DNA of 64,000 nucleotides, from contig CAUYUJ010000225.1 in NCBI GenBank assembly GCA_963575745.1, positions 1,240,001-1,304,000 on the forward strand, read 5' to 3'. A program made the position numbers and the translations under genes. This document shows, piece by piece, positions 30,391-50,607 of this stretch. Each line of letters starts with the position of its first letter. The stretch's first letter is position 1. Under the pieces are notes generated by a model. The model was not told the DNA's origin, did not search any database, and saw nothing but the letters and a program-made list of their open reading frames with translations. The DNA is from Prorocentrum cordatum. Its lineage: Eukaryota.

Positions 30391-30732
30391 GAGATCATTT
30401 TTTTATTCCGGCCGGTAACGCTCGTTACCCGGGGGGGGGGGGGTCGTGCCCCCCGGGTAACGGTAACGCTTGGGCTGGGCGGGGTATGGCGAAGCAGGGG
30501 CGCTCTGCGATCGCCATAGTATGCGCGCGAGCAGCACTCTCTGCCTGAGAGCACCACAGTGGCTTGCGATTCGAGTACAAGCGCAAAGCCCGCCGCGGGG
30601 TCCCGGCACCACGCCCGCGCCCGCGCGCGCGACGACGATGATCGACGAGCGACGAGCGACGAGGTCGACGACGACGACGACGACGTTTGCCGCCTGTTTC
30701 GGCCTCCGGAGGCCGTTTTCGGGCGCCGTCGC

Positions 30733-31030: not shown

Positions 31031-32637
31031 GCGACAGGCGGGAATGAGGCCGCTGGGGCCGCAAGTGGCGACGGACGGGAACGGGGCCGCTGGGGCCGCA
31101 AACGGTCCCAGTTAAACTTAGACGGGAAACGGCAACCTCTACATGTAAGCACTGGTAAGGCAAAAAGACACGGGGCGGCGGTGATTTGCCGTAGGCGTCT
31201 TCGATCCGCCGCCCCCTGCCACAGAAGTGCACGGCGTGCTGGAAGTCAGCTTGGTTTGAAAGTTGTCTTGACAAATCCCCATAAAGTCTCGGCCGATTAC
31301 GCCGGCCGCGCGGACCCTCCCAAGACCGCCAAAATGGCTCAAGATGGCCTCCGAAACGGGTACGTTGGCCTCCAAGACGTTCCCAAGACGCCTTCAAGAC
31401 GGCCACGGTGGCCCCAAGATGGCCCAATATGCCCTCCTGACAGCCGACAAGGCCCCCAAGGAACCCCACGAAGGCCACATGATGACCTCCAGGAGGCCAA
31501 CATCATTGATGTTCCATTGTTGTTCCCAACCATCCTGCGGCGTTTCCAGTTCCCCCCCTCCCTCCTCCCATCCCCGCCCCTGCCCTCCGCATGTCAACCA
31601 TTAAACCGCGCCCCTCGCACGGTTCGCGGCCACATGGGGAACTCCACATAAGGTCCAAGTGGCAAGATCCACATGCGGCCCCCCGCCCACCGCTTGTTCA
31701 TGTCGGCATACCCCTCACACGCTTCGCGACCCCATAATGAGCTCCACTGAACGCTTCGCGACCCCATAATGAGCTCCACTGAAGGCCCCAATGACAAGGT
31801 CCACATGCGGTTCCCCGCCCACCGCACGACCATTTCGACACACCGTTCACACTTTTCATGGTTTCGTAGGGAGCTCCACCGAAGGCCCCGATGGCGAGGT
31901 CCCCATGCGGTTCCCCGCCGACCACACGTTCATGTCGACACGCCCCTCGCACGCGTCGTGGACCCATAGGGAGCTCCACCGAAAACCCCAACGGCAGGGT
32001 CCACACGCGGCTGCCCGCCGACCGCATGTTCACGTCGGCACACTCCTAACACGCTTCGTGGCCACGTGGGGAACTCCACCCAAGGCACCAGTGGAAAGGG
32101 TGCACATGCCGTTCCCCGCCCTCCTCGTGTCAAGAAATTTCGACAAGCCCCTCACACGTTTCGTGGCCCGCTGGGGAGCTCCACCTAATGCCCCAATGGC
32201 AGGGTCCACATGCGACCCCCCGTCCACCCCATCTCAATCTCTGCACACCTTCACACGCTTCGTGGCCCCATAAGCTCGCGGGGACTCCCTTGCGCTCTGC
32301 CTCCAGCAGCTGCCCGACGTCCGCGCGCAATGTCCGTTGTCAGCCACGCGTGTTTGTTGCCCCGTGCCGCGGACATCCCGCGCGCGTCGCCGGGACTCCT
32401 TCGGGGCGACCATCGCGCGTCGCGAGGACTCCGCAATGCGCGGGACCCAGAGCCGCGCCCATCGGTGCGCAAGGGCCAAAAAGGGAGAAATGCGAGAGAA
32501 GGAAACGTCCACAAAACGGCGGGGCCTGGGGCTCAGGCCACCGCGGGAAAAAGGGGGCAAGAACGCAACGCCGCACCGTGGAAACAAGGAGAGGAGTGAA
32601 CGAGCTGGGAGAGAAGTGGACACGAAATGGCGGCGCA

Positions 32638-35994: not shown

Positions 35995-37415
35995 GCTGGG
36001 AAGGTTTTTGTTGGAAGTCCTTTTGTAGAGGTTTCAAGCGGAATCCTTTTGTAGACGCTCTCAATCAGAATCCTTGTGTAGAGGCTTTCAAGCGGAATCC
36101 TTTTCCAGAGGCTATCAAGCGGAATCTTTTTGCATAGGCTCTCAGCAGGAATCCTTGTGTGAAGGCTCTCAAGAGAAAAATTATGTCGCACATGCTCTCA
36201 ATAGCAATCCTTTTGTATTGGCTTCCTATATGAATCCTTGTGTAGAGGCTCTCAATACGAACTTGTTGTATTGGCTTCCAATAGGAGACCTTTCGTAGGG
36301 GCTGTCAATCTGAATCCTTTTGTAAAGGATTTCAATGGGAATCCTTCTGTAGGAGGCTCTCATTGGGAATCCTTGTGTAGAGGCTTTCAATCGAAATCCT
36401 TTTGTAGAGGCTCTCAACAGGAATCCTGTTGTAGAGGCTCTCCATAGGAATCCTTTCGTGGAGGCTCTCAATCGGAATCATTGTGTAGAGGTTTTCAATA
36501 TGAAACCTTGTGTATTAACTTTCAATAGGAGTCCTTTTTTTAATGGCTTTCACTAAGAATCCTTTTGTCGAGGCTCTCAATCGGATTCTTTTGTAGAGGC
36601 TCTCAATAGGAATCCTTGTGTGGAGGCTCTCAATAGGAATCCTTCTGCATTGGCTTTCAATAGCAATCCTCGTGCACAAGCTTTCATTCGGAATCTGTTT
36701 GTAGAGGCTGGCAATCGGAATCCTTTTGTAGAGGCTTTCAATCGGAATCCTTGTGTAGAGGCTCTCAATCGAAATCATTGTGTAGAGGCTCTCAAAAGGA
36801 ATCCTTATGTGGAGGCTCTCAATGGAATCCGTTTGCACAGGCTCTCAATAAGAGTCCTTTTGTATTGGGTATCAATAGGAATCCTTCTGTATCGGCTTTC
36901 AATATGAATCCTTTTGTAGAAGCTCTCAGTAGGAAATCTTTTGTATTGGCTTCCATCAGGAATCCTTTTCTGGAGGTTTTCAATCTGAATCCTTCCGTAA
37001 AGGATTTCGATCGGAATTCTTCTGTAGAGGATCTCATTTTGAATCCTTTCTGTAGAAGCTTGCAATAGGAATCCTTTTGTAGAGGCTTTCAATCGGAATC
37101 CTTGTGTTAAGGATTTCAATAGGAATCCTTTCGTGGAGGCCCTCAAAAAGAATCCTTCTGTCGAGGCTCTCAATAGGAATCCTTTTGTACAGGCTCTCAA
37201 CAGGAATCTGTTTGTTTTAGCTTTCAATCGGAATCATGTTTGTACTGGCTTTCACTGGGAATCCTTTTGTAGAGGCGTTCAATGGGAATCCTTGTGTAGA
37301 GGCTTTCAATAGGAATCCGTTGGGAATGTTTTTCTTTGAAAGGTTCCAGGAATCCTTGATTCTTCGCGAGGAGGGTTTGTGGAAGGGTTTTTTGGAAGGT
37401 TCCAGGAATCCATGG
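35995..37415 (+). repeat. 27-28-bp satellite (GGAATCCTTTTGTAGAGGCTCTCAATA)
   Basis: Roughly 50 tandem units; same family as 25560-27540. Confidence 0.95.
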
Positions 37416-38256
37416 GGGGACATGGCTTCCATCATGTCAGTTTTTCGGCATGTGAGCGGGAAGCCCATCGGCCTGTGATCCCGCGACGCAAGGGTGATTG
37501 TGGACTTTGCTTGCGGGGGCAGGGGCGCGACTCCATGTGGATCGAGGAGAGATCGCAATTCACGAATTCGTGACACTGGATTGTCTCTGCTGTGGTGCGT
37601 AAGAAAAGCAAATCAGGGAAACGACGCCACCCGTTAGGCCCGTACGGCCCTATGCATGTGTGTATGAATGAATGTCTGTCTGTCTCTGTCTGTCTGTCTG
37701 TATGTATGTATGTATGTATGTGTGCATGTATGTGTGCATGTATGCATGCATGAATGCATGTATGTATGTATGCATGTGTGTGCCTGGCTAAGGCCATCCT
37801 CGGCCCTGGCATGACGTATACGCCCCCTGGTCGAGGCCAGAAAAGCCTATGCACCATCGTGGGGTCCAGGATGGCCCACGTCGGGAACTGTGGTGGCAGA
37901 CTTGGCGGCGCGCACAAGGGGGTATGGGGGAGGGGGGAGGGCTTCTTAGGAGCACCCTGCTTCTTAGAAGACGCCGGCCCTACATCTGCAGAGAAGGCCC
38001 ACGCCTTCCAACAAGCAGGGGTGCTTCTAGAGAGCCTTCCCCCCTCCCCCTACCCTCAGGTCGGGCGTGTCCCTACAGGTGGATTTGGGAGGACAAACTA
38101 AAAAATATTCCAAACATTTTCAAAAGTAGTTGAAACATACAAAAAAAACGTTCCCAGACTATTATTCCCAACCATCCTGTGGTGTTGGGTCCTCGTTTTG
38201 AAGAGACGGCGCCCAGCGTTCCTCACCTCCTCCTCCTCCCCCCCCCTCCCTCCTCC

Positions 38257-38353
<97 letters not shown>

Positions 38354-38469
38354 TATATCATATCATCATCTTAATCATCATCATCACTCACCATCACCAT
38401 CACCATCAACCATCATCATCATCATCACAATCATCCTTCATCATCTTCAATATATCATCATCTTCATCA

Positions 38470-40050
38470 CCACACCCCGATTTCGGCAACCGCTCTAACG
38501 TTTCGTGGCCCCCCATTGGGGAGCTCACGAGAAAGGCCCCAGTGGCAGGGTCCGCATGCCTCACATCAACATTTCGGCACATCCCTAACACGTTTCGTGC
38601 CCATGGGGAGGCTCCACGATCGCCCCAGTCGGCAGAGGTCCGCATGGCCTCCCCACCACCCTTTCGGCCACCCTCCACAGTTTCGTGCCGGCCCCATAGG
38701 GAGCTCACCGAAGGCTCCAGTGGGCAGGGACCGCACCATGACTTCCCCACACCCTTTTCGGCGCACCCCTCACACGTTTCGTGGCCCCATAGGGAGCTCA
38801 CCGAAGGCCCCAGTGCCGCCGTCCGCATGCGTCCCGCACATCCCATTCGGCACACCCCTCACACGTTTCGTGGCCCCATAGGGAGCTCCACCGAAGGCCC
38901 CAGTGGCTGCGTTCGCATGCCTCCCACCACCCATTTCGGCACACCCCTCACACGTTTCGTGGCCCCATAGGGAGCTCCACCGAAGGCCCCAGTGGCAGGG
39001 TCCGCATGCCTCCCCACCACCCATGTCGGCACACCCCACACACGTTTCGTGGCCCCATAGGGAGCTCCACCACCAGCACCAGTGGCACTGGCAGTCTCCG
39101 CATGCCTCCCCACCACCCATTTCGGCACACCCCATCACACGTTCCGTGGCCCCATAGGGAGCTCCACCGAAGGCCCCAGTGGCTGCGTTCGCATGCCTCC
39201 CCACCACCCATTTCGGCACACCCCTCACACGTTTCGTGGCCCCATAGGGAGCTCCACCGAAGGCCCCAGTGGCAGGGTTCGCATGCCTCCCCCACACCCA
39301 TTTCGGCACACCCCTCACACGTTTCGTGGCCCCACAGGGAGCTCCACCGAAGGCCCCAGTGGCAGGGTTCGCATGCCTCCCCACCACCCATTTCGGCACA
39401 CCCCTCACACGTTTCGTGGCCCCATAGGGAGCTCCACCGAAGGCCCCAGTGGCCTGGTTCCCCACCACCCATTTCGGCACACCCCTCACACGTTTCGTGG
39501 CCCCATCCCACCGAAGGCCCCAGTGGCCGCATGCCCCCCACACCCATTTCGGCACATCCATCACACGTTTCGTGGCCCCATGGGGATTTCCACTGAAGGC
39601 CCCAGTGACTGGGTTCGCATGCGCCCCCCACACCCATTTCGGCACACCCCTCACACGTTTCGTGGCCCCATATGGAGCTCCACCGAAGGCCCCAGTGGCT
39701 GGGTTCGCATGCGCCCCCACACCCATTTCGGCACACCCCTCACACGTTTCGTGGCCCCACAGGGAGCTCCACCGAAGGCCCCAGTGGCTGCGTTCGCATG
39801 CCGCCCCCACACCAATTTCGGCACACCCCTCACACGTTTCGTGGCCCCACAGGGAGCTCCACCGAAGGCCCCAGTGGCTGCGTTCGCATGCCGCCCCCAC
39901 ACCAACTTCGGTGCACCCCTCACACGTTTCGTGGCCCCATAAGGAGCTCCACCGAAGGCCCCAGTGGCAACGTTCGCATGCCGCCCCCACACCCATTTCG
40001 GCACACCCCTCAAACGGTTCGTGGCCCCATAGGGAGATCCACCGAAGACG
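38470..40050 (+). repeat. 90-bp tandem satellite; degenerate copies at ~31600-32270, 45590-45940 and 59150-59640
   Basis: TTTCGGCACACCCCTCACACGTTTCGTGGCCCCATAGGGAGCTCCACCGAAGGCCCCAGTGGC at 39211, 39301, 39391 etc. Confidence 0.96.
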
Positions 40051-40205
40051 GTACTCACACCAGCATTACTCACAACTGCATATGGTTGGGTCCTTCGCCA
40101 GGCTGATTTTACTGTTTTTGAGTATTCCCCCTGTAGAGAGACACGCCCGACTTAACCCTACCCCCTCTGCGCGTGGCCGCTACACGGATGCCTTCTGCAG
40201 GACAG

Positions 40206-43136
40206 TCAGACGCCCTTCTCGAGGTCGCCCCCCTCGCCCGCTGGCGCTGCCGCGGCGGGCCTGCCGAGGGCGCGCGGCAGCGGCCTCCCGCGCCCCCGGC
40301 GGCCGCGCGGGGCTCCGCCGAAGGCCGCGCAGAAGGCGCCCCCCGCGGCCGGCGGCGGCGCCGGCGCCGCGCCGCCGAGGCCGGCGAGCAGCGGGCCCTG
40401 CGCCACGGGGCAGCAGCGTGGGTCCGTGCAGACGGCCTGCGGCAGGGCTGGACCCCAAGCGCTGTTTTGCGTTTCGTTTGCGCTGTTCGTTGTTCGTTGT
40501 GCTCTGTGCCTGTTCTCCTGTGCCTCCCGGCCAGAGCGAACGACAAAGCACAGCCGAAGTCCAGCAGAACAGCGTTTAGGTCCAGCCCTGGCCTGCGGCA
40601 CTGGCGGGACAGCGCCAGGCCCGCCAGCCCAGGGGGCGGCGCCCTGAGGCCGAGGCGGCGGTGTCGTGGCCTCGGGAGCCTTTGCGCTCGAGGCCACGAG
40701 GCTGGCCTCCGCGTGGACGCCAGTGCGCTGACGCTCGCGACCCATGAGCATCACGGACGAGCCGTTGAGCATCACCAGCAGCATGGATCCCAGGTCGACC
40801 AGTATGGCACCCAGGAGGGACGTATGGCCTAAGAAGGTGAAGGCCACGAATACGACCTTGCTGGCCAGCGCGAACGCTATGTTCTGTCGGACCTTACGCA
40901 GCACGCACCTGCCGAGGCGGAACGCGAAGGCCAAGCGCATGAGGTTCGAGTCCATCAGGACAATGTCCGCCGCCTCCAGCGCTGCCGCCCGGCCAGCCGC
41001 CCCCATGGCCACGCCCACGTGGGACGCCGCCAAAGCGGGGACATCGTTGATGCCGTCTCCCACCATGGAGACCGTCTGGTAGCTCTTGCACAAATCCAAC
41101 ACCTCGGCGATCTTGTCATCGGGCCTCAGGCCCGATCTGATGTCGACAATGCCGGTGCTCTCGCCCACGGCTTTCGCGGCACCTCGGCCGTCTCCAGTGA
41201 GCATCGACACGGCAATGCCCATGCTCTTGATCTCGGCGATGGCATCCTTGGCCTCTGGTCGCGGGACATCTGCCACGCTGAGCACCGCGAGCAGCCTCTG
41301 GTCGTCGCCGACCCAGAGGACCGATCCGCCCTCCTCGGCCCACCTGTCCACATGGAGCTCTGTCGACCAGCCCATCCGAGCAGCTAGCCGCTCGTTCCCG
41401 ATGGAGACGCAGACCCCCTCCACAGTGGCTCGGACGCCTTCTCCATGGACCTCGCGATAGTCGGCCACGTCTGTGGGCAGCTGTGCTGCGTCGCGCCGCT
41501 TCGCCTCCGTCACGAGCGCGAGCGCCAGAGGGTGGCTCGAGCGCGCCTCGATGGCCGCGATCCAGCGCCACAAGATATCCTCGCCCTTGCCCGCTGCATC
41601 GGGGCTCACCATCTGGAATTCCCGCACCCGGAAGCAGCCCTCTGTGAGTGTGCCCGTCTTGTCCAGAGCCGCCATCCTAACAGCACCCAGGGTTTCCAGA
41701 TGTACCCCTCCACGAACGAGCATGTTATGTGTCGCTGCACATGCGATCCCGCTCATGTAGGTGACTGGCGTGGAGATCACCATCGCACAAGGGCACGCGA
41801 CGACCAGCAGGACGAGGGTCATGTAGAAACACTCGGGCGCACGCTCGCGAGCCACAAACCATGGGGCGATCATCAGAAAAAAAGCAACGGTCAAAATGCA
41901 CGGGGTGTACAGCCGGGCGAATCTCTCGACGGTCTGCTCCGTGTTGGAGCGCAACGCCTGGGCGCCCTCGACCATCTTCACGAGCTGACCCACGGCCGAA
42001 TCCTTGCCCTGTGCTGTTGTCTCCACCTCGGCGTAGCCGCTGAGGTTTGTGGTCCCGGCCCACACCTTGGAGCCGACGGCCTTGGGAACAGGCGCGGACT
42101 CGCCTGACAGAGCACTCTCGTCCACCAACAGTGCCCCTGCTGTCACCACGCCATCCACGGGGATCGAGTCGCCCTGCCTCACCACGACGGAAGCGCCCAC
42201 GGCCAGATCGGAGGCCGCCACGCGCTCGCCGCTGGAGAGCTCCGCCTCCTCGGGGCGGAGGGCCAAGATCTCCGCTATGACCCCGCGCGCGCGCAGCGTG
42301 ATGCGGGACTCGAGGAAATCCGCCGTGGAGAAGAGGACCAGAACGGTGGCTGCCTCGCAGAAGTTTTCCAGCGCCAGGGCGCCAAGGCAGGCCATCAGGA
42401 CGAGGGTGTTTATGTCCAGGTGGCAGCGTGTGACTCCAGAGGCCGCACGAACCAGGACCTTCGGGGAGGTGAGCAGCAGCGACAGCACCGCGCTGACCCT
42501 GCTGGACCAGAAAACAAACGGCACCACCCCACCTACGGCCCCACGGGCCGTAGCGTATACCAGGACATCTGGCGTGGGTTTTTGCATGGGATGCGCTACG
42601 GCCCCCGATGGGCTGGAGGGCCGTAGGTGGGGTGGTGTCGTTTGTTTTCTGGCCGACCTGTGCACGCTCCATGAATTCAAAAGGTAGCCCGCCACAGACA
42701 CCGCCAGCAGCGCCGCTGCGGCCAAGAGGCGCGCGGGGATGCGCTTCACGGGCGCCCCTCTCTCCAGCTTCTGCACGCGCGCCCCCAGGGCAGCCCGGTT
42801 GAGCGCGGCAACCAGCTCGGTCCCGCCCACCACCCTGGCGTCGTGCCTTACCGTAGCTGTCTTAGTGGCGGGGTTTATGCCCACTTCTTGGACGCCCGCT
42901 AGAGGGCTCAAGATGCGATCTATTACCGGCACTTCGGACGGGCAGCAGAGGCCGTCCACGTAGATGAGCGTGCTTGTGACGCCCACGGTTTTCCTGTTCC
43001 TGGCTTTCCTCTTGGACGGGACGCTGGCGCCGTCGTGCCCGTCTTTCTCCTCCGTGTCTCTGGCCACAGCGTCTTCGTCGAACTCGCTGTCATCATCGAC
43101 GAGTCTGGACCATGCCCACTGGAAGAACGGGCTCAT
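40206..43136 (-). CDS. P1B-2-type (Zn/Cd-exporting, HMA2/HMA4/ZntA/CadA-like) heavy-metal P-type ATPase. Predicted exons 43136-42658, 42498-40593 and 40436-40206 (871 aa spliced; 976 aa if unspliced)
   Basis: N-terminal HMA domain with GLCCPSE (CCxxE), actuator DESALSGES, transmembrane CPC, phosphorylation site DKTGTLT, HP motif (SSHPLA), MLTGD, hinge MVGDGINDVPALA, Lys in QNIAFALASK and DLG in the last helix (P1B-2 signature), and a Cys pair in the C-terminal tail. No stops or frameshifts. Confidence 0.96.
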   Translation of the reverse strand: MSPFFQWAWSRLVDDDSEFDEDAVARDTEEKDGHDGASVPSKRKARNRKTVGVTSTLIYVDGLCCPSEVPVIDRILSPLAGVQEVGINPATKTATVRHDARVVGGTELVAALNRAALGARVQKLERGAPVKRIPARLLAAAALLAVSVAGYLLNSWSVHRSARKQTTPPHLRPSSPSGAVAHPMQKPTPDVLVYATARGAVGGVVPFVFWSSRVSAVLSLLLTSPKVLVRAASGVTRCHLDINTLVLMACLGALALENFCEAATVLVLFSTADFLESRITLRARGVIAEILALRPEEAELSSGERVAASDLAVGASVVVRQGDSIPVDGVVTAGALLVDESALSGESAPVPKAVGSKVWAGTTNLSGYAEVETTAQGKDSAVGQLVKMVEGAQALRSNTEQTVERFARLYTPCILTVAFFLMIAPWFVARERAPECFYMTLVLLVVACPCAMVISTPVTYMSGIACAATHNMLVRGGVHLETLGAVRMAALDKTGTLTEGCFRVREFQMVSPDAAGKGEDILWRWIAAIEARSSHPLALALVTEAKRRDAAQLPTDVADYREVHGEGVRATVEGVCVSIGNERLAARMGWSTELHVDRWAEEGGSVLWVGDDQRLLAVLSVADVPRPEAKDAIAEIKSMGIAVSMLTGDGRGAAKAVGESTGIVDIRSGLRPDDKIAEVLDLCKSYQTVSMVGDGINDVPALAASHVGVAMGAAGRAAALEAADIVLMDSNLMRLAFAFRLGRCVLRKVRQNIAFALASKVVFVAFTFLGHTSLLGAILVDLGSMLLVMLNGSSVMLMGRERQRTGVHAEASLVASSAKAPEATTPPPRPQGAAPWAGGPGAVPPVPQARAGPKRCSAGLRLCFVVRSGREAQENRHRAQRTTNSANETQNSAWGPALPQAVCTDPRCCPVAQGPLLAGLGGAAPAPPPAAGGAFCAAFGGAPRGRRGRGRPLPRALGRPAAAAPAGEGGDLEKGV
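40437..40592 (-). mobile_element. hAT-like MITE (40443-40590, 8-bp TSD) forming a 156-nt GC-AG intron in the ATPase
   Basis: TIRs CAGGGCTGGACC...GGTCCAGCCCTG (12 bp perfect, ~27 bp imperfect) and a perfect 8-bp TSD GCCTGCGG at 40435-40442 and 40591-40598. On the coding strand the TSD is CCGCAG|GC, which supplies both donor and acceptor. Confidence 0.88.
42499..42657 (-). mobile_element. Introner-like MITE forming a 159-nt GT-AG intron in the ATPase
   Basis: 35-bp inverted repeats at 42507-42541 and 42618-42652 (34/35 match). Minus strand reads CACAG|GTCGGCCAGAAAAC...GTTTTCTGGTCCAGCAG|GGTC with CAG duplicated at both ends. Removal joins SWSVHR-VSAVLSLLL. Confidence 0.85.
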
Positions 43137-43198
43137 TCAGCCCCAACCTGTGCGACAGCAGGCAACATGGAAGACGCACTGGGCTGCCCAAGACAGCA

Positions 43199-43220
43199 CT
43201 TGAGCCGAACCAGCTACGGA
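43199..43220 (-). promoter_or_regulatory. Relict dinoflagellate spliced leader (DinoSL) upstream of the ATPase
   Basis: Minus strand reads TCCGTAGCTGGTTCGGCTCAAG versus DinoSL DCCGTAGCCATTTTGGCTCAAG: 18/22 identical, with the first 8 and last 8 nt perfect. Sense orientation, 62 nt before the ATG. Confidence 0.9.
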
Positions 43221-45967
43221 GCCTGCTTTGTAGTACTCACTACTCTTCGCACGCACCTCAGAACAACGGAGTATACCCTTGGATCCCGGAACCCAACCAA
43301 AACTCGACCCAAAACTCCTGATGGGCAACGTTCAGGCAAAATGTTCTAGCCTTGTCCAGTCACGACGACTAGCAGATCCCCAGGGGGCATGAAACAAGGG
43401 CTTGCAATGCCATCTATGCAATCTGCTATGGTCTGCTCGCTGCTGCATTCTGGTCCCACGTTGTCCCACAAAGACATTCATCGTCCATCTCCATCGCCCT
43501 CCCCGACGAAGCCTCCGGAGGCCTTGCCGAGGCTCCTGCAAGCTGCTGCAAGCTTCCTGGACTCCTGGGAGGTCCCGGAGCTTCTGAACATCCATGGAAG
43601 CCCGTGACGGGTTCCTAAAAACAAAACGGCCCACGGAGATGCCAGAGCCCCGCGTCCCAGACAGGACAGGACGGGCGGGAGGACAGGAGGAGGAGGAGAA
43701 GGTGGAGGAGGAGGATGATGAGGAGCAGGAGGAGAAGGAGGAGGAAGAGCGGCAGAGGCAATCCGCTCGCGCGCTCGAGTTGCCAGGGGCGCTCGGCACA
43801 TGAACTTTCCAGCTGCAAGAGGACGAAGTGGCGGGGAGGAGCGGCCGCAAAGGAGAGGAGGGGGACCAGGGTCCTCGGACAGAATTGCGGGATGAATGGT
43901 CACCTCCTCCTCCTCCTCCTCCTCCTCCTCCTCCTCCTCCTCCTCCTCCTCCGCCACCGCCGCCGCCGCCGCCGCCGCCACGCCTCCTCCGCCTCCTCCT
44001 CCTCCTCCCTCCTCCTCCTCCCGCCTCCTCCTCCTCCGCCTCCTCCTCCTTCCTCCTCCTCCTCCGCCTCCCCTCCCTCCTCCTCCTCCTCCTCCTCCTC
44101 CTCCCTCCTCCTCCTCCTCCTCATCATCATCATCATCTCATCATCATCATCACCCCCTCCTTCGTCCTCGTCCTCCTCGTCGTCCTCCTCCTCTTCTTAT
44201 TTCTGCTCCTCCTCTTCCTCCTCCTCCTCTCCTCCTCCTCCTCCTCGCCTCCTCCTCCTCCTCCTCCTCCTCCTGCTTCTGCTCCTCCTCCCCCTCCCCT
44301 CCCCCTCCTCCCCTAGGACAGGACAGGCGCCGATGTACGCCTCAGGGGGAGGGCGGCCCTCCAAGAGCTAAGCGGGGGGGGCACCAGAGCGCCGAAACTC
44401 AGGTGCCGTAGCACGTGATTACAATCAACCCGCATCATAAGGACGCAAGATAAGGATGCAACTGCCGTGGAAGGCCATGCCGACATTTTGCGAGAGGGGC
44501 GCGGCTAGCGGAAGCGGCCAAGGACGGGCCGAAGGGGAAGGATGCAAGGGTAACCTTGGAAAGTCGCTCATCCTTACTACGCGGGCTGACTGTACTTCAC
44601 GAGCCAGAACTTTGCACCACTCTGCTGGTACAGTCTTTCCCATGAGCCTGAGATCGGGGAGCAGGCAATGGAATAAGCAGCAACTTTCGGAGGTCCGCGC
44701 GGATTTCTTGGATCGGTGCTGGTTCCCCCTTCCTGGCACGCGGAGCGCGCCATGGGCGGTGTCAGAAGCGCCGCCAAAGGGCTCCAACGCTGATCCGCGA
44801 AATCCGCGCGGACCTCCGCGAAATCATGTTTATGTCATTGTTTGCTCTTCAATGAGAGCGCCCCAGAGCGCGCCGCGAAAGACTCAAAAGGCGCCAAGAC
44901 AGGCCCGAGTGCTCGGCCACGCGCGAATCGAGGCCATGCATCCGAAGCTGCAAACGTTTTACGTGCCAGGATTCCCTGAAGGCCCGCCGTGATTTGTCCT
45001 CTGCGGGCTCAATGCGGGGCGGGCCCCCTGCGGGTCCTGGCCGTGTTGGGTTCCTGAGAGATTGGCGAGGTGAAGAAGAATAGAAGGCTTGAGATACCCC
45101 CCGTGCGAAAAGCAACTGGTGTTTTTGTACGCATTCCCCCCCGATTTCAACGTTCAATGCGGTGCCGATGGTTTGTCCGACACTCGGCGGTCGCGCGATC
45201 AACATTGAAATGGAGGGCCAGGGGGCTGGCCAAACACCAATTGCTCTTCGCAGGCTAATCTGCAGGCGCAGAGAAAGTTCTTAGGGAGGCCAGGAGCGCG
45301 AGTCACGGCGAGACCCCCGAGCACCCGAATTCTCGTGGACGCTTATTGGCGGTCCAAACGGCCCCAACTTTTCCCAAGATCGGCTCCAGACGGCCCAAGA
45401 CGGCTCCTATATGGGCCACGACGCCGCCAAGGCGCCCCAAGAAGGCTCCAAGAAAACCCCAATGAAGGCCTCCAGATGCAGATATACAATTGATTCCCAA
45501 CCATCATGTGTTGTTGGGCCCCCGTTATGAAAATACTACGCCCCGCGTCCCACATCACTTTCCTCCTTCCCTTCCTTCCTCCTCCCGTCCCTGACATTTC
45601 GGCACACCCCGCACACGCTTCGCAGCCCCATCGGGAGCTCCACGGAAGGTCCACGTGGCAGCGCACGCATGGCTGCGCCGCCCCCTGTTGGCACACCCCT
45701 CGCACGCTTCGCAGCCCCATGCGGCAGCGTCGGCATGGCGGCAGCATCCCCCATTTTAGCACATCATTCACGCGCCACGTGGCCCCATACGGCAGGGAGT
45801 TTCACCGAGGGCCCCAGCGCCGCCTCCATTTGGGCACACCCCATCACACGCTTCGTGGCCCCGTATGGAGCTTCGCCGAAGGCCCACGCGGCAGCGCCCG
45901 CCAGGCGGCGCCGCCTCCATGTGGGGAGCTTCACGCCGCTTCGGCGATGGTGGAATAGTTGTGCAAA

Positions 45968-47810
45968 TTGACCGGCTGACCGGTTGACCGGCTGACCGGC
46001 TGACCGGTTGACCGGTTGACCGGCTGACCGGCTGACCGGCTAACTGGCTGACCAGCTGACCGGTTGACCGGCTGACCGGTCGACCGGCTGACCGGCTGAT
46101 TGGCAGACCGGCTGACCGGTTGAACGGTTGACCGGCTGACTGGTTGACCGGCTGACCGGGCGACCGGCTGACCGGTCGACCGGTGACCACATGACCAGCT
46201 GACAAGCTGACCTGCGGACCGGTTGACCGGCTGACCGGTCGACCGGTCGCGGCTGACCGGCTGACCAGTTGACCGGTTGACCGGCTGACCGGCTGACCGG
46301 CTGACCGGCTGGCCGCGTGAAGAAGCTGATGAAGGCGCTGACCAGCTGACCGGTTGACCGGCTGACCGGCTGACCGGCTGACCGGTTGACTGGCTGACCT
46401 GCTGACCGGCTGACCAGGTTGACCGGTTGACCGAATGACCGGTTGACCGGCTGACCAGCTGACCGGCTGACCGGCTGACCGGCTGACCAGCTGACCGGCT
46501 GACCGGTGAACTGGCTGACCGGCTGACCGGCTGACCGGCTGACCGGCTGACCATGGCTGACCGGCTGACCGGTTGACCGGCTGACCGGTCGACCGGCTGA
46601 CCGGCTGATTGGCTGACCGGCTGACCGGTTGACCGGTTGACCGGCTGACCGGTTGACCGGCTGACCGGGCGACCGGCTGACCGGTCGACCGCTGACCACA
46701 TGACCAGCTGACAAGCTGACCTGCGGACCGGTTGACCGGCTGACCGGTCGACTGGTCGCGCTGACCGGCTGACCGGTTGACCGGTTGACCGGCTGACCGG
46801 TTGACCGGCTGACCGGCTGGCCGCGTGAAGAAGCTGATGAAGGCGCTGACCAGCTGACCGGTTGACCGGCTGACCGGCTGACCGGCTGACCGGTTGACCA
46901 GCTGACCTGCTGACGGGCTGACCAGGTTGACCGGTTGACCGGTTGACCGGTTGACCGGCTGACCGGCTGACCGGCTGACCGGCTGACGGGCTGACCGACT
47001 GACCGGCTGACCGGTGGACTGGCTGACCGGCTGACCGGCTGACCGGCTGACTGGCTGACCGGCTAACTGGCTGACTGGCTGACCAGTTGACCGGCTGACC
47101 GGTCGACCGGCTGACCGGCTGATTGGCTGACAGGCTGAGCGGTTGACCGGCTGACCTGTTGACCGGCTGACCGGGCGACCGGCTGACCGGTCGACCGCTG
47201 ACCACATGACCAGCTGACACGCTGACCTGCGGACCGGTTGACCGGCTGACTGGTCGACCGGTCGCGGCTGACCGGCTGACCGGTTGACCGGTTGACCGGC
47301 TGACCGGCTGACCGGCTGACCGGCTGGCCGCGTGAAGAAGCTGATGAAGGCGCTGACCAGCTGACCGGTTGACCGGCTGACCGGCTGACCGGCTGACCGG
47401 TTGACCGGCTGACCTGCTGACCGGCTGACCAGGTTGACCGGTTGACCGGTTGACCGGTTGACCGGCTGACCGGCTGACCGGCTGACCGGCTGACCGGCTG
47501 ACCGGCTGACCGGTGGACCGGCTGACCGGCTGACCGGCTGACCGGCTGACCGGTTGACCGGCTGACCGGTTGACCGGCTGACCGGGTGACCGGCTGACCG
47601 GTCGACTCGCTGACCACATGACCAGCTGACAAGCTGACCTGCGGACCGGTTGACCGGCTGACCGTATGACCGGCTGACCGGGTGACCGGGTGACCAGCTG
47701 ACCGGTGGACTGGGTGACCGGGTGACCGGGTGTCCGGGTGACCGCGGGTGACCGGGTGACCGGCTGACCGGTTGACCGGCTGACTGGTTGACCGGGTGAC
47801 CGGGTGACCG
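45968..47810 (+). repeat. 8-bp (TGACCGGY)n satellite with ~508-bp higher-order repeat; second array at ~58545-59135
   Basis: TGACCGGC/TGACCGGT/TGACCGGG units. A marker insert GGCCGCGTGAAGAAGCTGATGAAGGCGC lies at 46311, 46819 and 47326. Confidence 0.96.
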
Positions 47811-50607
47811 GGCCTTCAGAGGCACGCGGGGAGACGCGACGGTGCCACCAGAGGGCTCAAAGACGCCGAAAGATCGCTCTCAAGATGGCCCCCGGACGGC
47901 CGAAGATGCCTCCAAGACGCCCCAAGAGGCCTCCAAGAGGCCTCCCAAGAGGGCCCGAAGAGGCAAACATGTTTGCTTTTCTATAATTTGTGTCAAAATC
48001 CTTAAGGTTTTCTCGTTTTCGGCTTCCCGACGCTCCAAGACGGCCCAAGAGGCCCCAAGATCGCCCCAAGACGGCCCAGGAGGCCCCCAAGACGGGCCCA
48101 AGACGGCCCAAGAGGGCCCCAAGACGGCCCCAGAGGCCTCCAAGACGGCCCAGGAAGCCCCCAAGACGGCTCCAAGAGGGGGCCCAGACGGGGGACCCGA
48201 ACGGAAATTTCGAGCCCTCGGCCTCCAGAAGCCTCCAGGATACCCCGAGAGGCCTCCGAAAGGCTCCAAGAAGCCCCAAGAGTCCCCTCGCGAGACAGGC
48301 CCCAAGAGGCCCCAAAACGGTCCCCAAGAGGCCTCAAAAATGCTTCCAAGAGGCCTCCGAGAAGCCTACCACGAGATCACAAACGAACACTCAACAGACC
48401 TTTAACCCAGAACCCAGGCACGGTGGCGGGATGGGCCGAAGGCCATTCGATCCGCCGTCCCCTGTTGATTCATCACAGGTGGGTTCCTTTTCCCCCCCTG
48501 AAAAAACTCCCCCTGGCTCTGGCCCAGCCCGCCGGCCACCCGGAAGGGCCCACACGAGGTGGTCGCAAAGGTTTTTCCTGCTCCCGACGGCTCCAAGATT
48601 GCCTAAGATGGCTTCCAAGAGGGCCAAGATGGCCTTCAAGTTCGCCGAAAATGGTCCAAGATGCCTTCTCAGACGGCCCAAGAGGGTCCAAGATACCTCC
48701 AAGTTCGCCCAAGAAGCCTCCAAGACGGCCCAAGGGGCCCCCAAAAGGCCTCCAAGACGGCCCAAGAGGCCTCCAAGAGGCCCTCCAGGAGAGCCCGAGG
48801 AGATCAAAATCAGTGATTTCCCGATTGTTTTTCAAATCTTTTGACATTTGCTTCTTTTTGGCATTCCGACGGCTCAAGACGGCTCAAGAGGCCCCCAAGA
48901 TCGCCCTAAGATCGCCCACGAGGCCTCCAGGGTGGCCCTATGACGGCCCAAGAGGCCCCCAAGACGGCCCCAAGAGGGCCCCAACAGACCTCCAAGACGG
49001 CCAAGATGGCCTCCAAGACGGCTAAGATGGCCCAAAGATGCCTCCAAGACGGCCCAAGATGCACCCAAAACGGCCCGGGATGGCTTCAAGATGGCCCAAG
49101 ACGGCTCAAGAGGCCCCCAAGAGGCCTCCAAGACGGCCCAAGAGGCCTCCAAGAGGTCCTCCAGGAGGGCCCGAAGATACCGAAATCAATGATGTTCCTA
49201 AGGTTTTTGATATATGTTGGCATTTGTTTTTTTTGTTCGGCATTCCGACGGTCAAAACGACCCAAGAGGCCCCAAGATCGCCCCAAGATCGACCACGAGG
49301 CCTCCAAGATGGCCCCATGACAGCCCAAGAGGCCCCCAAGACGGCCCCAAGACGGCCCAAGAGGCCTCCAAGACGGCCAAGATGGTCTCCAAGACGGCCC
49401 TGAAGCGTTGCAACACGGGCCCCAAGTCGGTTCAGAGAGGCCCCCAAGACGGCCTCCGACGGCGTCAGACGGATCAGGAAAGCCCTAAGACGGCCAAAGA
49501 GGCCCCCAAGAAGCCCCCAAAGGCCCCCAAGAGGCCCCCAAGAGGCCCCCAAGGGGCTCCATAGTGGTCCCGAAAGGCCCCCAGGAAGCTCCGCAGAGGT
49601 CTCCCAAGAGGCCCCCCAAGACGTTCCCAAGAAGTCTCCTCCTCCTCGTCGTCCTCCTCCTCGTCGTCCTCCTCCTCCTCCTCCTCCTCCTCCTCCTCCT
49701 CTTCCTAATCCGGCTTCTCCAGCCTCGTCCTTCTCTTCCAGCCTCCTCCTCTTCCTCCTCCTCCTCCTCCTCCACCATCATCCTTATCATCATCCTCATC
49801 CTCCTCGTAATAATCATCCTCCCTCTCCTGGTCCTCCTCCTCTTCCTGCTCCCCCACGCGCTCCCCGAAGTCTTTCCAAACCGATTTGGGAAAAAAACTG
49901 GCCGGATAGCTTGGCCAAGCTCTGGCCCAGCTGTCGGCCACACAGGCACTTCCAAACGGGCAAGGCGCGGCGGTGATTCGCCGTAGGAGTCTTCGATACA
50001 GATGCCCGTACTTCCCGTCCTGACCAGAATCTCGAAGCGAAGCCAGCCGTGGCGGCGAGAACTCTCCAGGACGAGCAGCGGTATCGGCATCTCAGCCGGA
50101 TCCTCCTCCCCTCCTCGCCCCTGGACGGGTTCGGAGCGTCCGCGTTCCCACCCGAAGCGCGCCATGCCCACGAGAGGCGACGAGCCAGACGCCCCTCGGG
50201 GCCCCAGCGCGCCGAGCCCCCATCGGCGAGGACTGCCTGAAGCCCGCCGCGCACCCTCGCGCCAAAGGCGAGCCCAGCGCGACGTCGACCGCGTCGTCCT
50301 CTTCCTCCTCCTCATCCTTCTCGTCGTCCTCGTCCCCCTCCTCCCCCCCTCCTCCTCCTCCTCCTCCTCTTCCTCCTCCTCCTCCGTCATGAGTAAGGGT
50401 AAGAGAAAGACGAATAAAGATGACGGCGGCCAAGAAAACCATCGGAGTATTTCGTGGTAGTCATCGCCACGGAAGCACGCGCCTCAAGCCACGAATCTCC
50501 GCCTAGGCGCCTAGGACAGTTATGGTCGCATGGATGCACCAGCCGACGCGCAAGGACCCTTGCGGGAGTCACTGGATACCAATATGCGTAGATGTATAAG
50601 GCGCAAG

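What the first reader, a model, noticed from the sequence alone, without database searches (positions are those of the whole stretch)
40435..40598. hAT-like MITE whose 8-bp TSD supplies both splice sites (GC donor and AG acceptor)
Seen: a 148-bp foldback element with CAGGGCTGGACC TIRs and TSD CCGCAGGC on the coding strand. Splicing CCGCAG|GC...CCGCAG|GC removes exactly 156 nt (element plus one TSD) and restores PPVPQ-AVCTDPRCC. Known: 8-bp TSDs with CAGGG/TAGGG ends typify hAT elements, and GC donors are common in dinoflagellates. Inference: no splice signal is needed in the element itself, so any insertion at an AG|GC proto-splice site becomes a scarless intron.
Basis: partly seen in the sequence, partly recalled or inferred. 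Interest (0 to 1): 0.8.

Follow-up and report, generated by a model that had tools for sequence, protein, structure and literature searches.

The report
Transposon-made intron in dinoflagellate metal pump
A 148-base hairpin-shaped jumping element sits in the coding tail of a dinoflagellate metal-pump gene and is missing from the RNA exactly as an intron, a clean example of a way of making introns that is already known in these algae.

Summary
At 40443-40590 lies a 148-bp foldback with perfect 12-bp terminal inverted repeats, flanked by a perfect 8-bp direct repeat.

It sits in the non-conserved C-terminal tail of a P1B heavy-metal ATPase gene on the minus strand. RNA-type contigs in 3 of 4 laid runs skip exactly 156 nt, the element plus one repeat copy. 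The deposited 871-aa Prorocentrum cordatum protein lacks the same 52 codons. Of the 12 equivalent cuts only one has an AG acceptor, and it reads GC..AG|G with all four letters inside the duplicated target.

The hAT label rests on a single 8-bp duplication and a recalled end motif. No close second copy could be collected, because no genome is held.

The mechanism is in print: Polarella introner classes 13 and 14 take both splice sites from the duplication, class 3 makes 8-nt duplications, and P. cordatum introns are reported as enriched in introner elements. This scan has also noted several such introns elsewhere in the same genome.

Verdict: a new member of a known kind, of low interest. A second foldback intron and a 2.2-kb non-canonical skip in the same mRNA are side observations.

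The parts
40443..40590 (-). 148-bp non-autonomous foldback element (MITE-like), with no coding capacity of its own
   Evidence: Perfect 12-bp terminal inverted repeats (I6). Subterminal arms 17 nt at 82% (I3). DNA fold z = -6.9.
40579..40590 (-). Terminal inverted repeat at the upstream end in gene orientation; reads CAGGGCTGGACC on the coding strand
40443..40454 (-). Terminal inverted repeat at the downstream end in gene orientation
40591..40598 (-). Upstream copy of the 8-bp target duplication, CCGCAG|GC. The first six bases end exon 2; GC (40592-40591) is the donor.
   Evidence: (D1)
40435..40442 (-). Downstream copy of the 8-bp target duplication, CCGCAG|GC. AG (40438-40437) is the acceptor; GC starts exon 3.
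   Evidence: (D1)
40437..40592 (-). The intron as removed: 156 nt, GC..AG followed by G, phase 0. It is in frame and stop-free if retained (52 codons).
   Evidence: The joint skipping 156 nt appears in contigs of X1, X4 and X16. The 871-aa model lacks these 52 residues. It is the only one of 12 equivalent cuts with an AG end.
40206..43136 (-). Host gene coding region, a P1B-type heavy-metal ATPase. The read-through ORF is 976 aa; the spliced product is 871 aa.
   Evidence: Pfam E1-E2_ATPase 1.5e-43, Hydrolase 3.3e-23, HMA 6.2e-06. P0001 is named as a Prorocentrum cordatum protein.
42499..42657 (-). Second intron of the same gene: 159 nt, GT..AG followed by G, also a whole-length foldback. It is unrelated in sequence to the first.
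   Evidence: The joint appears in X1, X4 and X16. 35-nt inverted repeat at 97%. Self reverse-complement match of 71% over 158 nt. No similarity to element 1 above shuffles.
37914..40153 (-). 2240-nt stretch of the 3' UTR skipped in an RNA contig, with non-canonical ends. A side observation, not part of the finding.
   Evidence: The loose end of X16 at 40154 maps to 37884-37913.

Best explanation
A small cut-and-paste DNA transposon without a transposase gene (148 bp, 12-bp terminal inverted repeats) inserted into the coding tail of a heavy-metal P-type ATPase gene of a dinoflagellate. The deposited protein names it Prorocentrum cordatum. The insertion duplicated 8 bp of target, CCGCAGGC.

The target held the exon-junction-like word AG|GC. 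The upstream copy therefore now offers a GC donor and the downstream copy an AG acceptor followed by G. The spliceosome removes the element plus one copy (156 nt) and gives back the pre-insertion reading frame.

Shown: the anatomy, the exact absence from RNA-type contigs and from the gene model, and the uniqueness of the GC..AG cut. Inferred: that removal is spliceosomal, that the paired repeat arms help by bringing the two sites together, that the mobilising enzyme is of the hAT type, and that the insertion is recent (repeats and duplication are both perfect).
For: Anatomy.

RNA: single contigs of 2840, 2851 and 2506 nt in X1, X4 and X16 cover 40154-40433 | 40590-42497 | 42657-43214. They have a 156-nt skip with 11 ambiguous letters and no cover of the element's interior. 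Depth is zero beyond 43272 in all four runs, so X1 and X4 behave as RNA.

Gene model: P0001 (871 aa) equals the 976-aa read-through ORF minus 53 and 52 residues. Homologues P0004 and P0006 (50% and 49% identical) keep PP.P.PVC(T/N)SPCC contiguous across the site.

Splice sites: only 1 of 12 equivalent cuts is G[TCA]..AG. Only 203 of 2609 (7.8%) 8-nt windows of this coding sequence hold AGG[ACT], so its presence here is not expected by chance. Species norms are GC donors 51.4% and AGG acceptors 79.7% (PMC10666404, passages).

Traces of other copies: 38-40-nt matches to the element's end, with 1-3 mismatches, in other contigs of X4, X15 and X16. One 138-aa transcript-derived protein, P0121, reads through a diverged copy of about 143 nt with both repeat ends.
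Against: No run known to be DNA from the strain that gave the RNA was laid. X1 and X4 are of unrecorded kind, and all evidence is from assembled contigs, which hide rare retained forms. An empty-site allele or an element-free gene copy would give the same RNA.

All four runs differ from the window at 41095, so the RNA sources may not be identical to the assembly.

No second copy lies in the window. The metagenome pattern scan gave only 2 chance matches, both in bacterial sigma-factor genes. The viral scan gave 0, and the word-based protein search gave 0 of 7 candidates. A multi-copy family with 8-bp duplications is therefore not demonstrated.

The target does not fit the weak hAT target preference, which I recall rather than tested.

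The same mRNA carries a skip with non-canonical ends, so not all removal in this transcript follows GY..AG.
Confidence: 0.8

Rival explanations
1. The RNA comes from an allele, strain or duplicate gene copy that never received the element (an empty site). On this reading the 156-nt 'skip' is a DNA difference and not splicing.
For: Precise loss of the element plus one duplication copy is exactly what an empty site looks like. No DNA run was available as a control. All 4 runs carry T>C at 41095 relative to the window.
Against: The same contigs also skip a GT..AG intron 2 kb upstream and stop at the gene's ends, as processed RNA does. X1 and X4 differ from the window at only 1 of about 2746 aligned letters. 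The deposited model built on this assembly removes the same 52 codons. The duplication holds the one word that makes a legal GC..AG|G intron, which an unspliced polymorphism would not need (7.8% by chance).
Confidence: 0.07
2. Removal is guided by the hairpin and the flanking repeat rather than by GY..AG recognition, as proposed for the non-canonical introner elements of Amoebophrya. On this reading the GC..AG is incidental.
For: The repeat arms pair to put both borders within 2 and 6 nt of the stem. The same mRNA shows a 2240-nt skip with AA..GT or TA..TG ends and an 18-of-19 inverted repeat at its borders. Earlier notes of this scan report AG-less hairpin introns elsewhere in this genome (unchecked here). 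The Amoebophrya precedent is PMC7789003 (passages).
Against: Both coding introns of this gene have fully standard dinoflagellate borders, GC..AG|G and GT..AG|G. AGG[ACT] inside the duplication is expected in only 7.8% of sites. Nothing here needs a special mechanism.
Confidence: 0.08
3. It is an ordinary old intron that merely contains a hairpin, and the flanking repeat is a coincidence rather than a transposon insertion.
For: Only one full copy is in hand. Dinoflagellate exon borders favour AG|G on both sides, which by itself makes short border repeats.
Against: There is a perfect 8-bp (11-bp) repeat directly abutting perfect 12-bp inverted repeats. Controls give a mean of 0.11 hits per window even under looser criteria. 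Homologues are contiguous across the site. A diverged copy with both ends exists in an unrelated transcript.
Confidence: 0.03

Closest known systems
Introner-like elements of Polarella glacialis, classes 13/14 and class 3 (Roy et al., bioRxiv 10.1101/2020.10.14.339549; parts 1-2 of the text read)
   Same: These are DNA-transposon insertions in dinoflagellate coding exons that become exact introns. Classes 13 and 14 recruit both splice sites from an AGGH duplication. Class 3 makes 8-nt duplications and forms introns in several registers and both orientations. GC donors are common.
   Different: Here the AG|GC word sits inside an 8-bp duplication at register 6, in a different genus. No sequence relation to the Polarella classes was tested, and the copy number is unknown.
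Introner elements reported in the Prorocentrum cordatum genome paper (Dougan et al. 2023, PMC10666404; passages of the main text and supplementary note read)
   Same: It is the same species by the name on the deposited protein. Introns with terminal inverted repeats plus short direct repeats were found in 2.4% of introns.
   Different: That survey searched for direct repeats of 3-5 nt and inverted repeats of 8-20 nt. In the passages I read it gave no families, no duplication classes and no splice-site origin. An 8-bp duplication class is not described there.
Aureococcus anophagefferens and Micromonas pusilla introners (Huff et al. 2016; paper not held; known here through the summaries)
   Same: They are miniature inverted-repeat transposons with target duplications (8 nt in Aureococcus) that are spliced exactly.
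   Different: In those families the element carries one splice site and the duplication supplies the other. Here the element carries neither dinucleotide.
Florenciella introners (Gozashti et al. 2022, PMC9860276; passages read)
   Same: [quoted passage not shown]
   Different: They are in a different lineage (a stramenopile), and no relation in sequence or mobilisation is known.
Amoebophrya A25/A120 non-canonical introner elements (Farhat et al. 2021, PMC7789003; passages read)
   Same: They have 8-20-nt inverted repeats plus direct repeats at intron borders, a hairpin that joins the exon ends, and a dinoflagellate host.
   Different: Those have non-canonical borders and 3-5-nt repeats. This intron has standard GC..AG|G borders and an 8-bp repeat.
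hAT superfamily non-autonomous elements such as maize Ds (recalled, not from any call)
   Same: They make an 8-bp target duplication and have short terminal inverted repeats beginning CAGGG or TAGGG. Ds insertions in exons are known to be spliced out of transcripts.
   Different: Ds splicing uses sites inside the element and is usually imprecise. No hAT transposase partner was found here.

Membership tests
Introner (transposon-derived spliceosomal intron) | Transposon hallmarks (terminal inverted repeats and a target duplication) at the intron borders | tested here: met
   Inverted repeat 12/12 and direct repeat 8/8, directly abutting. Controls.
Introner (transposon-derived spliceosomal intron) | Exact removal from mRNA that restores the uninterrupted coding sequence | tested here: met
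   A 156-nt skip in contigs of 3 of 4 laid runs. The 871-aa deposited model lacks the 52 codons. Caveat: contigs only, with no DNA control.
Introner (transposon-derived spliceosomal intron) | A family of similar copies forming introns in unrelated genes | tested here: inconclusive
   No other copy in the window. Matches of 38-40 nt to the element's end in other RNA contigs of 3 runs. One diverged read-through copy, P0121. The metagenome, viral and protein-word searches gave nothing real. No genome is held.
Introner (transposon-derived spliceosomal intron) | Splice sites carried by the element or co-opted from the duplication or target | tested here: met
   Only 1 of 12 equivalent cuts has an AG end. 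Both GC and AG lie in the duplication copies.
hAT superfamily (non-autonomous member) | 8-bp target site duplication | tested here: met
   One insertion only.
hAT superfamily (non-autonomous member) | Short terminal inverted repeats with the end motif YARNG (motif recalled) | tested here: met
   The ends read CAGGG...CCCTG. The motif itself comes from memory, not from a call.
hAT superfamily (non-autonomous member) | Weak target preference nTnnnnAn (recalled) | tested here: not met
   CCGCAGGC / GCCTGCGG has neither the T at position 2 nor the A at position 7. One site cannot test a statistical preference.
hAT superfamily (non-autonomous member) | An autonomous partner with the same ends that encodes a hAT transposase | not testable with these tools
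   No genome is held. No Pfam domain in 47 long ORFs of the window. Earlier notes of this scan list hAT-like transposase genes elsewhere in the genome, unchecked here.
Amoebophrya-type non-canonical introner element | Borders other than the organism's standard splice dinucleotides | tested here: not met
   The borders are GC..AG followed by G, standard for this species.
P1B-type heavy-metal ATPase (host gene) | E1-E2 ATPase and HAD hydrolase domains, an N-terminal HMA domain, and CPC and DKTGT motifs | tested here: met
   Pfam hits. ACPCA and DKTGT are invariant in the alignment.

The most novel reading that the evidence does not exclude
Prorocentrum may hold a hAT-mobilised introner class that carries no splice dinucleotide at all. 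Whether an insertion becomes an intron would then depend only on the register of AG|GY inside the 8-bp target (about 8% of sites in this gene), with the paired ends of the element doing the work of bringing donor and acceptor together. The non-canonical 2.2-kb skip in the same mRNA would then be the extreme of the same hairpin-assisted removal, in a free-living photosynthetic dinoflagellate.
Probability: 0.15. Interest if true: 0.5.

Novelty: new member of a known kind. Interest (0 to 1): 0.22.

Why it matters
It is a clean, apparently young, single-locus illustration of intron birth by transposon insertion at a proto-splice site. It lies in a gene that otherwise has only one other coding intron, which is itself a foldback. 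It adds an 8-bp-duplication example in Prorocentrum to classes described in Polarella, Symbiodinium, Aureococcus and Florenciella. It does not change what is known about the mechanism. Its practical value is for annotation: both introns are in frame and stop-free, so an ORF-based reading gives a false 976-aa protein instead of 871 aa.

Tried and rejected
- Whole-genome search for copies: no genome is held.
- blastn of the element against the window: only self matches and chance hits of 12 nt or less.
- Pattern scan of metagenome contigs: 2 loci, both bacterial ECF sigma-factor genes (QGWTETAVRIRLLRARR), i.e. chance.
- The same pattern in viral contigs: 0.
- HMMER of the 54-aa read-through peptide against 1.84 billion representatives: 2 hits at E up to 0.001. 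One (P0121) is a real diverged copy; the other (P0122) is a weak repeat match that I do not use.
- Word-based search for longer proteins: 7 candidates, none scored.
- Earlier notes of this scan searched by sequence: 0 look-alikes.
- Rfam at E up to 1 over 37000-44000: nothing near threshold on the element. The only match touching it (40389-40474) is malK-III at 21.5 bits against a gathering score of 50.
- Relation between element 1 and intron 2: local score 28 against a shuffle mean of 28.3, so none.
- X15 has no contig across the joint, which says nothing either way.
- The share of 0.84 of sampled words in 14 runs that I did not lay, apart from X1 and X4, is about what a doubly spliced mRNA would give by my own arithmetic. 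I do not count it as evidence.
- Huff et al. 2016 could not be read.
- Stop-free, in-frame retention looked notable. However, 2 of 3 sense frames of each intron are stop-free in this GC-rich DNA, so I draw nothing from it.
Full report
**What is there.** On the + strand the region reads GCCTGCGG (40435-40442), CAGGGCTGGACC (40443-40454), 124 nt, GGTCCAGCCCTG (40579-40590), GCCTGCGG (40591-40598). The repeat finder lists the 12-nt arms as 100% complementary and lists a direct repeat with spacing 156. That repeat extends to 11 nt only because neighbouring bases happen to equal bases of the inverted repeat. The inverted repeat itself cannot be extended.

The 148 nt fold as a long hairpin. As DNA the fold is -40.8 kcal/mol with z = -6.9. 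As RNA with flanks it is -86.7 kcal/mol with z = -4.5.

I scanned the whole window for an 8-bp repeat directly abutting an inverted repeat of at least 10 bp. That gave 85 raw hits. Of these, 83 fall in the 8-mer tandem array 45969-47811. The remaining two are this element and a 40-nt palindrome at 30415-30470. Resampled windows gave a mean of 0.11 hits.

**Where it sits.** The minus strand carries one open frame, 43136..40206 (976 aa). It has E1-E2 ATPase, HAD hydrolase and HMA domains, so it is a P1B heavy-metal pump. The frame runs straight through the element (52 codons, no stop). The element lies after the last membrane segment, in a low-complexity tail.

In 47 other long ORFs of the window, Pfam finds nothing. 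The rest of the window is largely tandem repeats. No transposase lies nearby.

**Is it removed from RNA?** No genome is held. I used the single run search and the single read-laying run.

- In X1, X4 (kind not on record) and X16 (polyA metatranscriptome), single contigs of 2840, 2851 and 2506 nt cover 40154-40433, 40590-42497 and 42657-43214.
- These contigs have a 156-nt skip with 11 ambiguous letters, and a 159-nt skip that reads GT..AG on the coding strand.
- The depth bins show no cover of the element's interior in any run, and none beyond 43272. X1 and X4 therefore behave as RNA.
- X15 has no contig across the site.

The best database match to the read-through ORF is an 871-aa protein that its sources name as Prorocentrum cordatum. 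One nr label on the same sequence says Polarella glacialis. It equals the ORF minus 53 and 52 residues at exactly these two places. Homologues of 50% and 49% identity keep the motif around the junction contiguous (PP.P.PVC(T/N)SPCC).

**Which borders?** Twelve cuts give the same product. Only one ends in AG: 40592..40437, GC..AG, with the next exon base G, in phase 0. All four letters lie in the two copies of the duplication.

In this species GC donors make up 51.4% and AGG acceptors 79.7% of introns (PMC10666404, passages). Only 203 of 2609 8-nt windows of this coding sequence hold AGG[ACT]. Its presence in the duplication therefore argues for ordinary splice-site use and not for coincidence.

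**Is it a mobile family?** This is the weak point.
- There is no second copy in the window.
- The metagenome pattern scan returned two bacterial sigma-factor genes, which are chance matches. The viral scan returned nothing.
- Traces exist. Other contigs in X4, X15 and X16 hold 38-40 nt of the element's end with 1-3 mismatches and then different flanks.
- One 138-aa transcript-derived protein, labelled Pyramimonas sp. CCMP1952 in its source, reads through a diverged copy of about 143 nt. Both inverted-repeat ends are recognisable in translation. I cannot tell whether that label reflects the true organism.
- I could not see the duplications of other copies.

The recalled weak target preference is not met at this one site. 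No partner element could be sought. Earlier notes of this scan list several hAT-like transposase genes, and one 8-bp-duplication giant element, elsewhere in the same genome. These are leads that I did not check.

**What is known.**
- Roy et al. (bioRxiv 10.1101/2020.10.14.339549; parts 1-2 read) describe 15 introner classes in Polarella glacialis. Classes 13 and 14 take both splice sites from an AGGH duplication. Class 3 has 8-nt duplications and forms introns in five registers and both orientations.
- Gozashti et al. 2022 (passages) show Florenciella introners that co-opt both sites.
- The P. cordatum genome paper (main-text passages and supplementary note) reports introner elements in 2.4% of introns. 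It used a search for 3-5-nt direct repeats.
- A search for 'Prorocentrum' plus 'introner' found 7 papers. By their titles and abstract starts, none is devoted to introner classes in this genus.
- Earlier notes of this scan record several TSD-built introns in other pieces of the same genome.

The finding is thus a further, clean member of a known kind.

**Side observations in the same mRNA.**
- The second intron (42499-42657) is a whole-length foldback with a 35-nt, 97% inverted repeat and a 4-nt CAGG border repeat. It is unrelated in sequence to the first element.
- Past the stop codon, the X16 contig jumps from 40154 to 37913. It skips 2240 nt that hold a 90-nt tandem array. The ends read AA..GT or TA..TG, and an 18-of-19 inverted repeat links the two borders.
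- All four runs read C for T at 41095. On the coding strand this changes GAT (Asp681) to GGT (Gly).

**Verdict.** The core reading is supported. The hAT label and the general rule are unproven. The mechanism is already in print.

Noticed in passing
window 37914-40153 (minus strand, 3' UTR of the ATPase gene): An RNA contig of X16 joins 40154 directly to 37913. It skips 2240 nt that contain the 90-nt x 17.7 tandem array. The ends are AA..GT or TA..TG (1 ambiguous letter), so not GY..AG. An 18-of-19 inverted repeat links 40173-40156 with 37928-37909. It could be a non-canonical intron or a structural difference between strains.
   Followed up: partly
window 37914-38060: The last 147 nt of that skipped stretch are themselves a foldback (self reverse-complement match of 77% over 140 nt). 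The region gives sub-threshold hits to plant and animal miRNA-hairpin models on both strands (best 55.5 bits against a gathering score of 168).
   Followed up: partly
window 42499-42657: The second coding intron of the same gene (159 nt, GT..AG|G, in frame and stop-free) is a whole-length foldback with a 35-nt, 97% inverted repeat and a 4-nt CAGG repeat at its borders. This fits a 4-bp-duplication introner in which G of the donor comes from the duplication and T from the element, but a 4-nt repeat is weak evidence.
   Followed up: partly
window 41095: All 4 laid runs read C where the window has T. On the coding strand this is A>G, changing codon 681 from GAT (Asp) to GGT (Gly) at a variable position. 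It may be RNA editing, a strain variant or an assembly error.
   Followed up: partly
protein P0121 (138 aa; source label Pyramimonas sp. CCMP1952 transcriptome): It reads through a diverged copy of the element of about 143 nt, with both inverted-repeat ends recognisable in translation (69% identity over 29 residues). Either a related element exists outside Prorocentrum, or the transcriptome holds foreign sequence.
   Followed up: partly
protein P0001 (871 aa): The identical deposited sequence carries two organism labels in its sources, Prorocentrum cordatum and Polarella glacialis. The window's G+C content (about 0.6) fits the 59.7% reported for P. cordatum.
   Followed up: no
window 38473-40047 and 31763-32214: There are long tandem arrays (units of 90 and 100 nt) sharing a GGGAGCTCCACCGAAGGCCCC core. 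Many other microsatellite and minisatellite arrays fill most of the window. The ATPase is the only recognisable gene among the long ORFs.
   Followed up: no
window 30415-30470: A 40-nt palindrome is flanked by an 8-bp direct repeat (GTAACGCT). It was the only other non-array hit of the TSD-plus-TIR scan and is probably just a palindrome.
   Followed up: no
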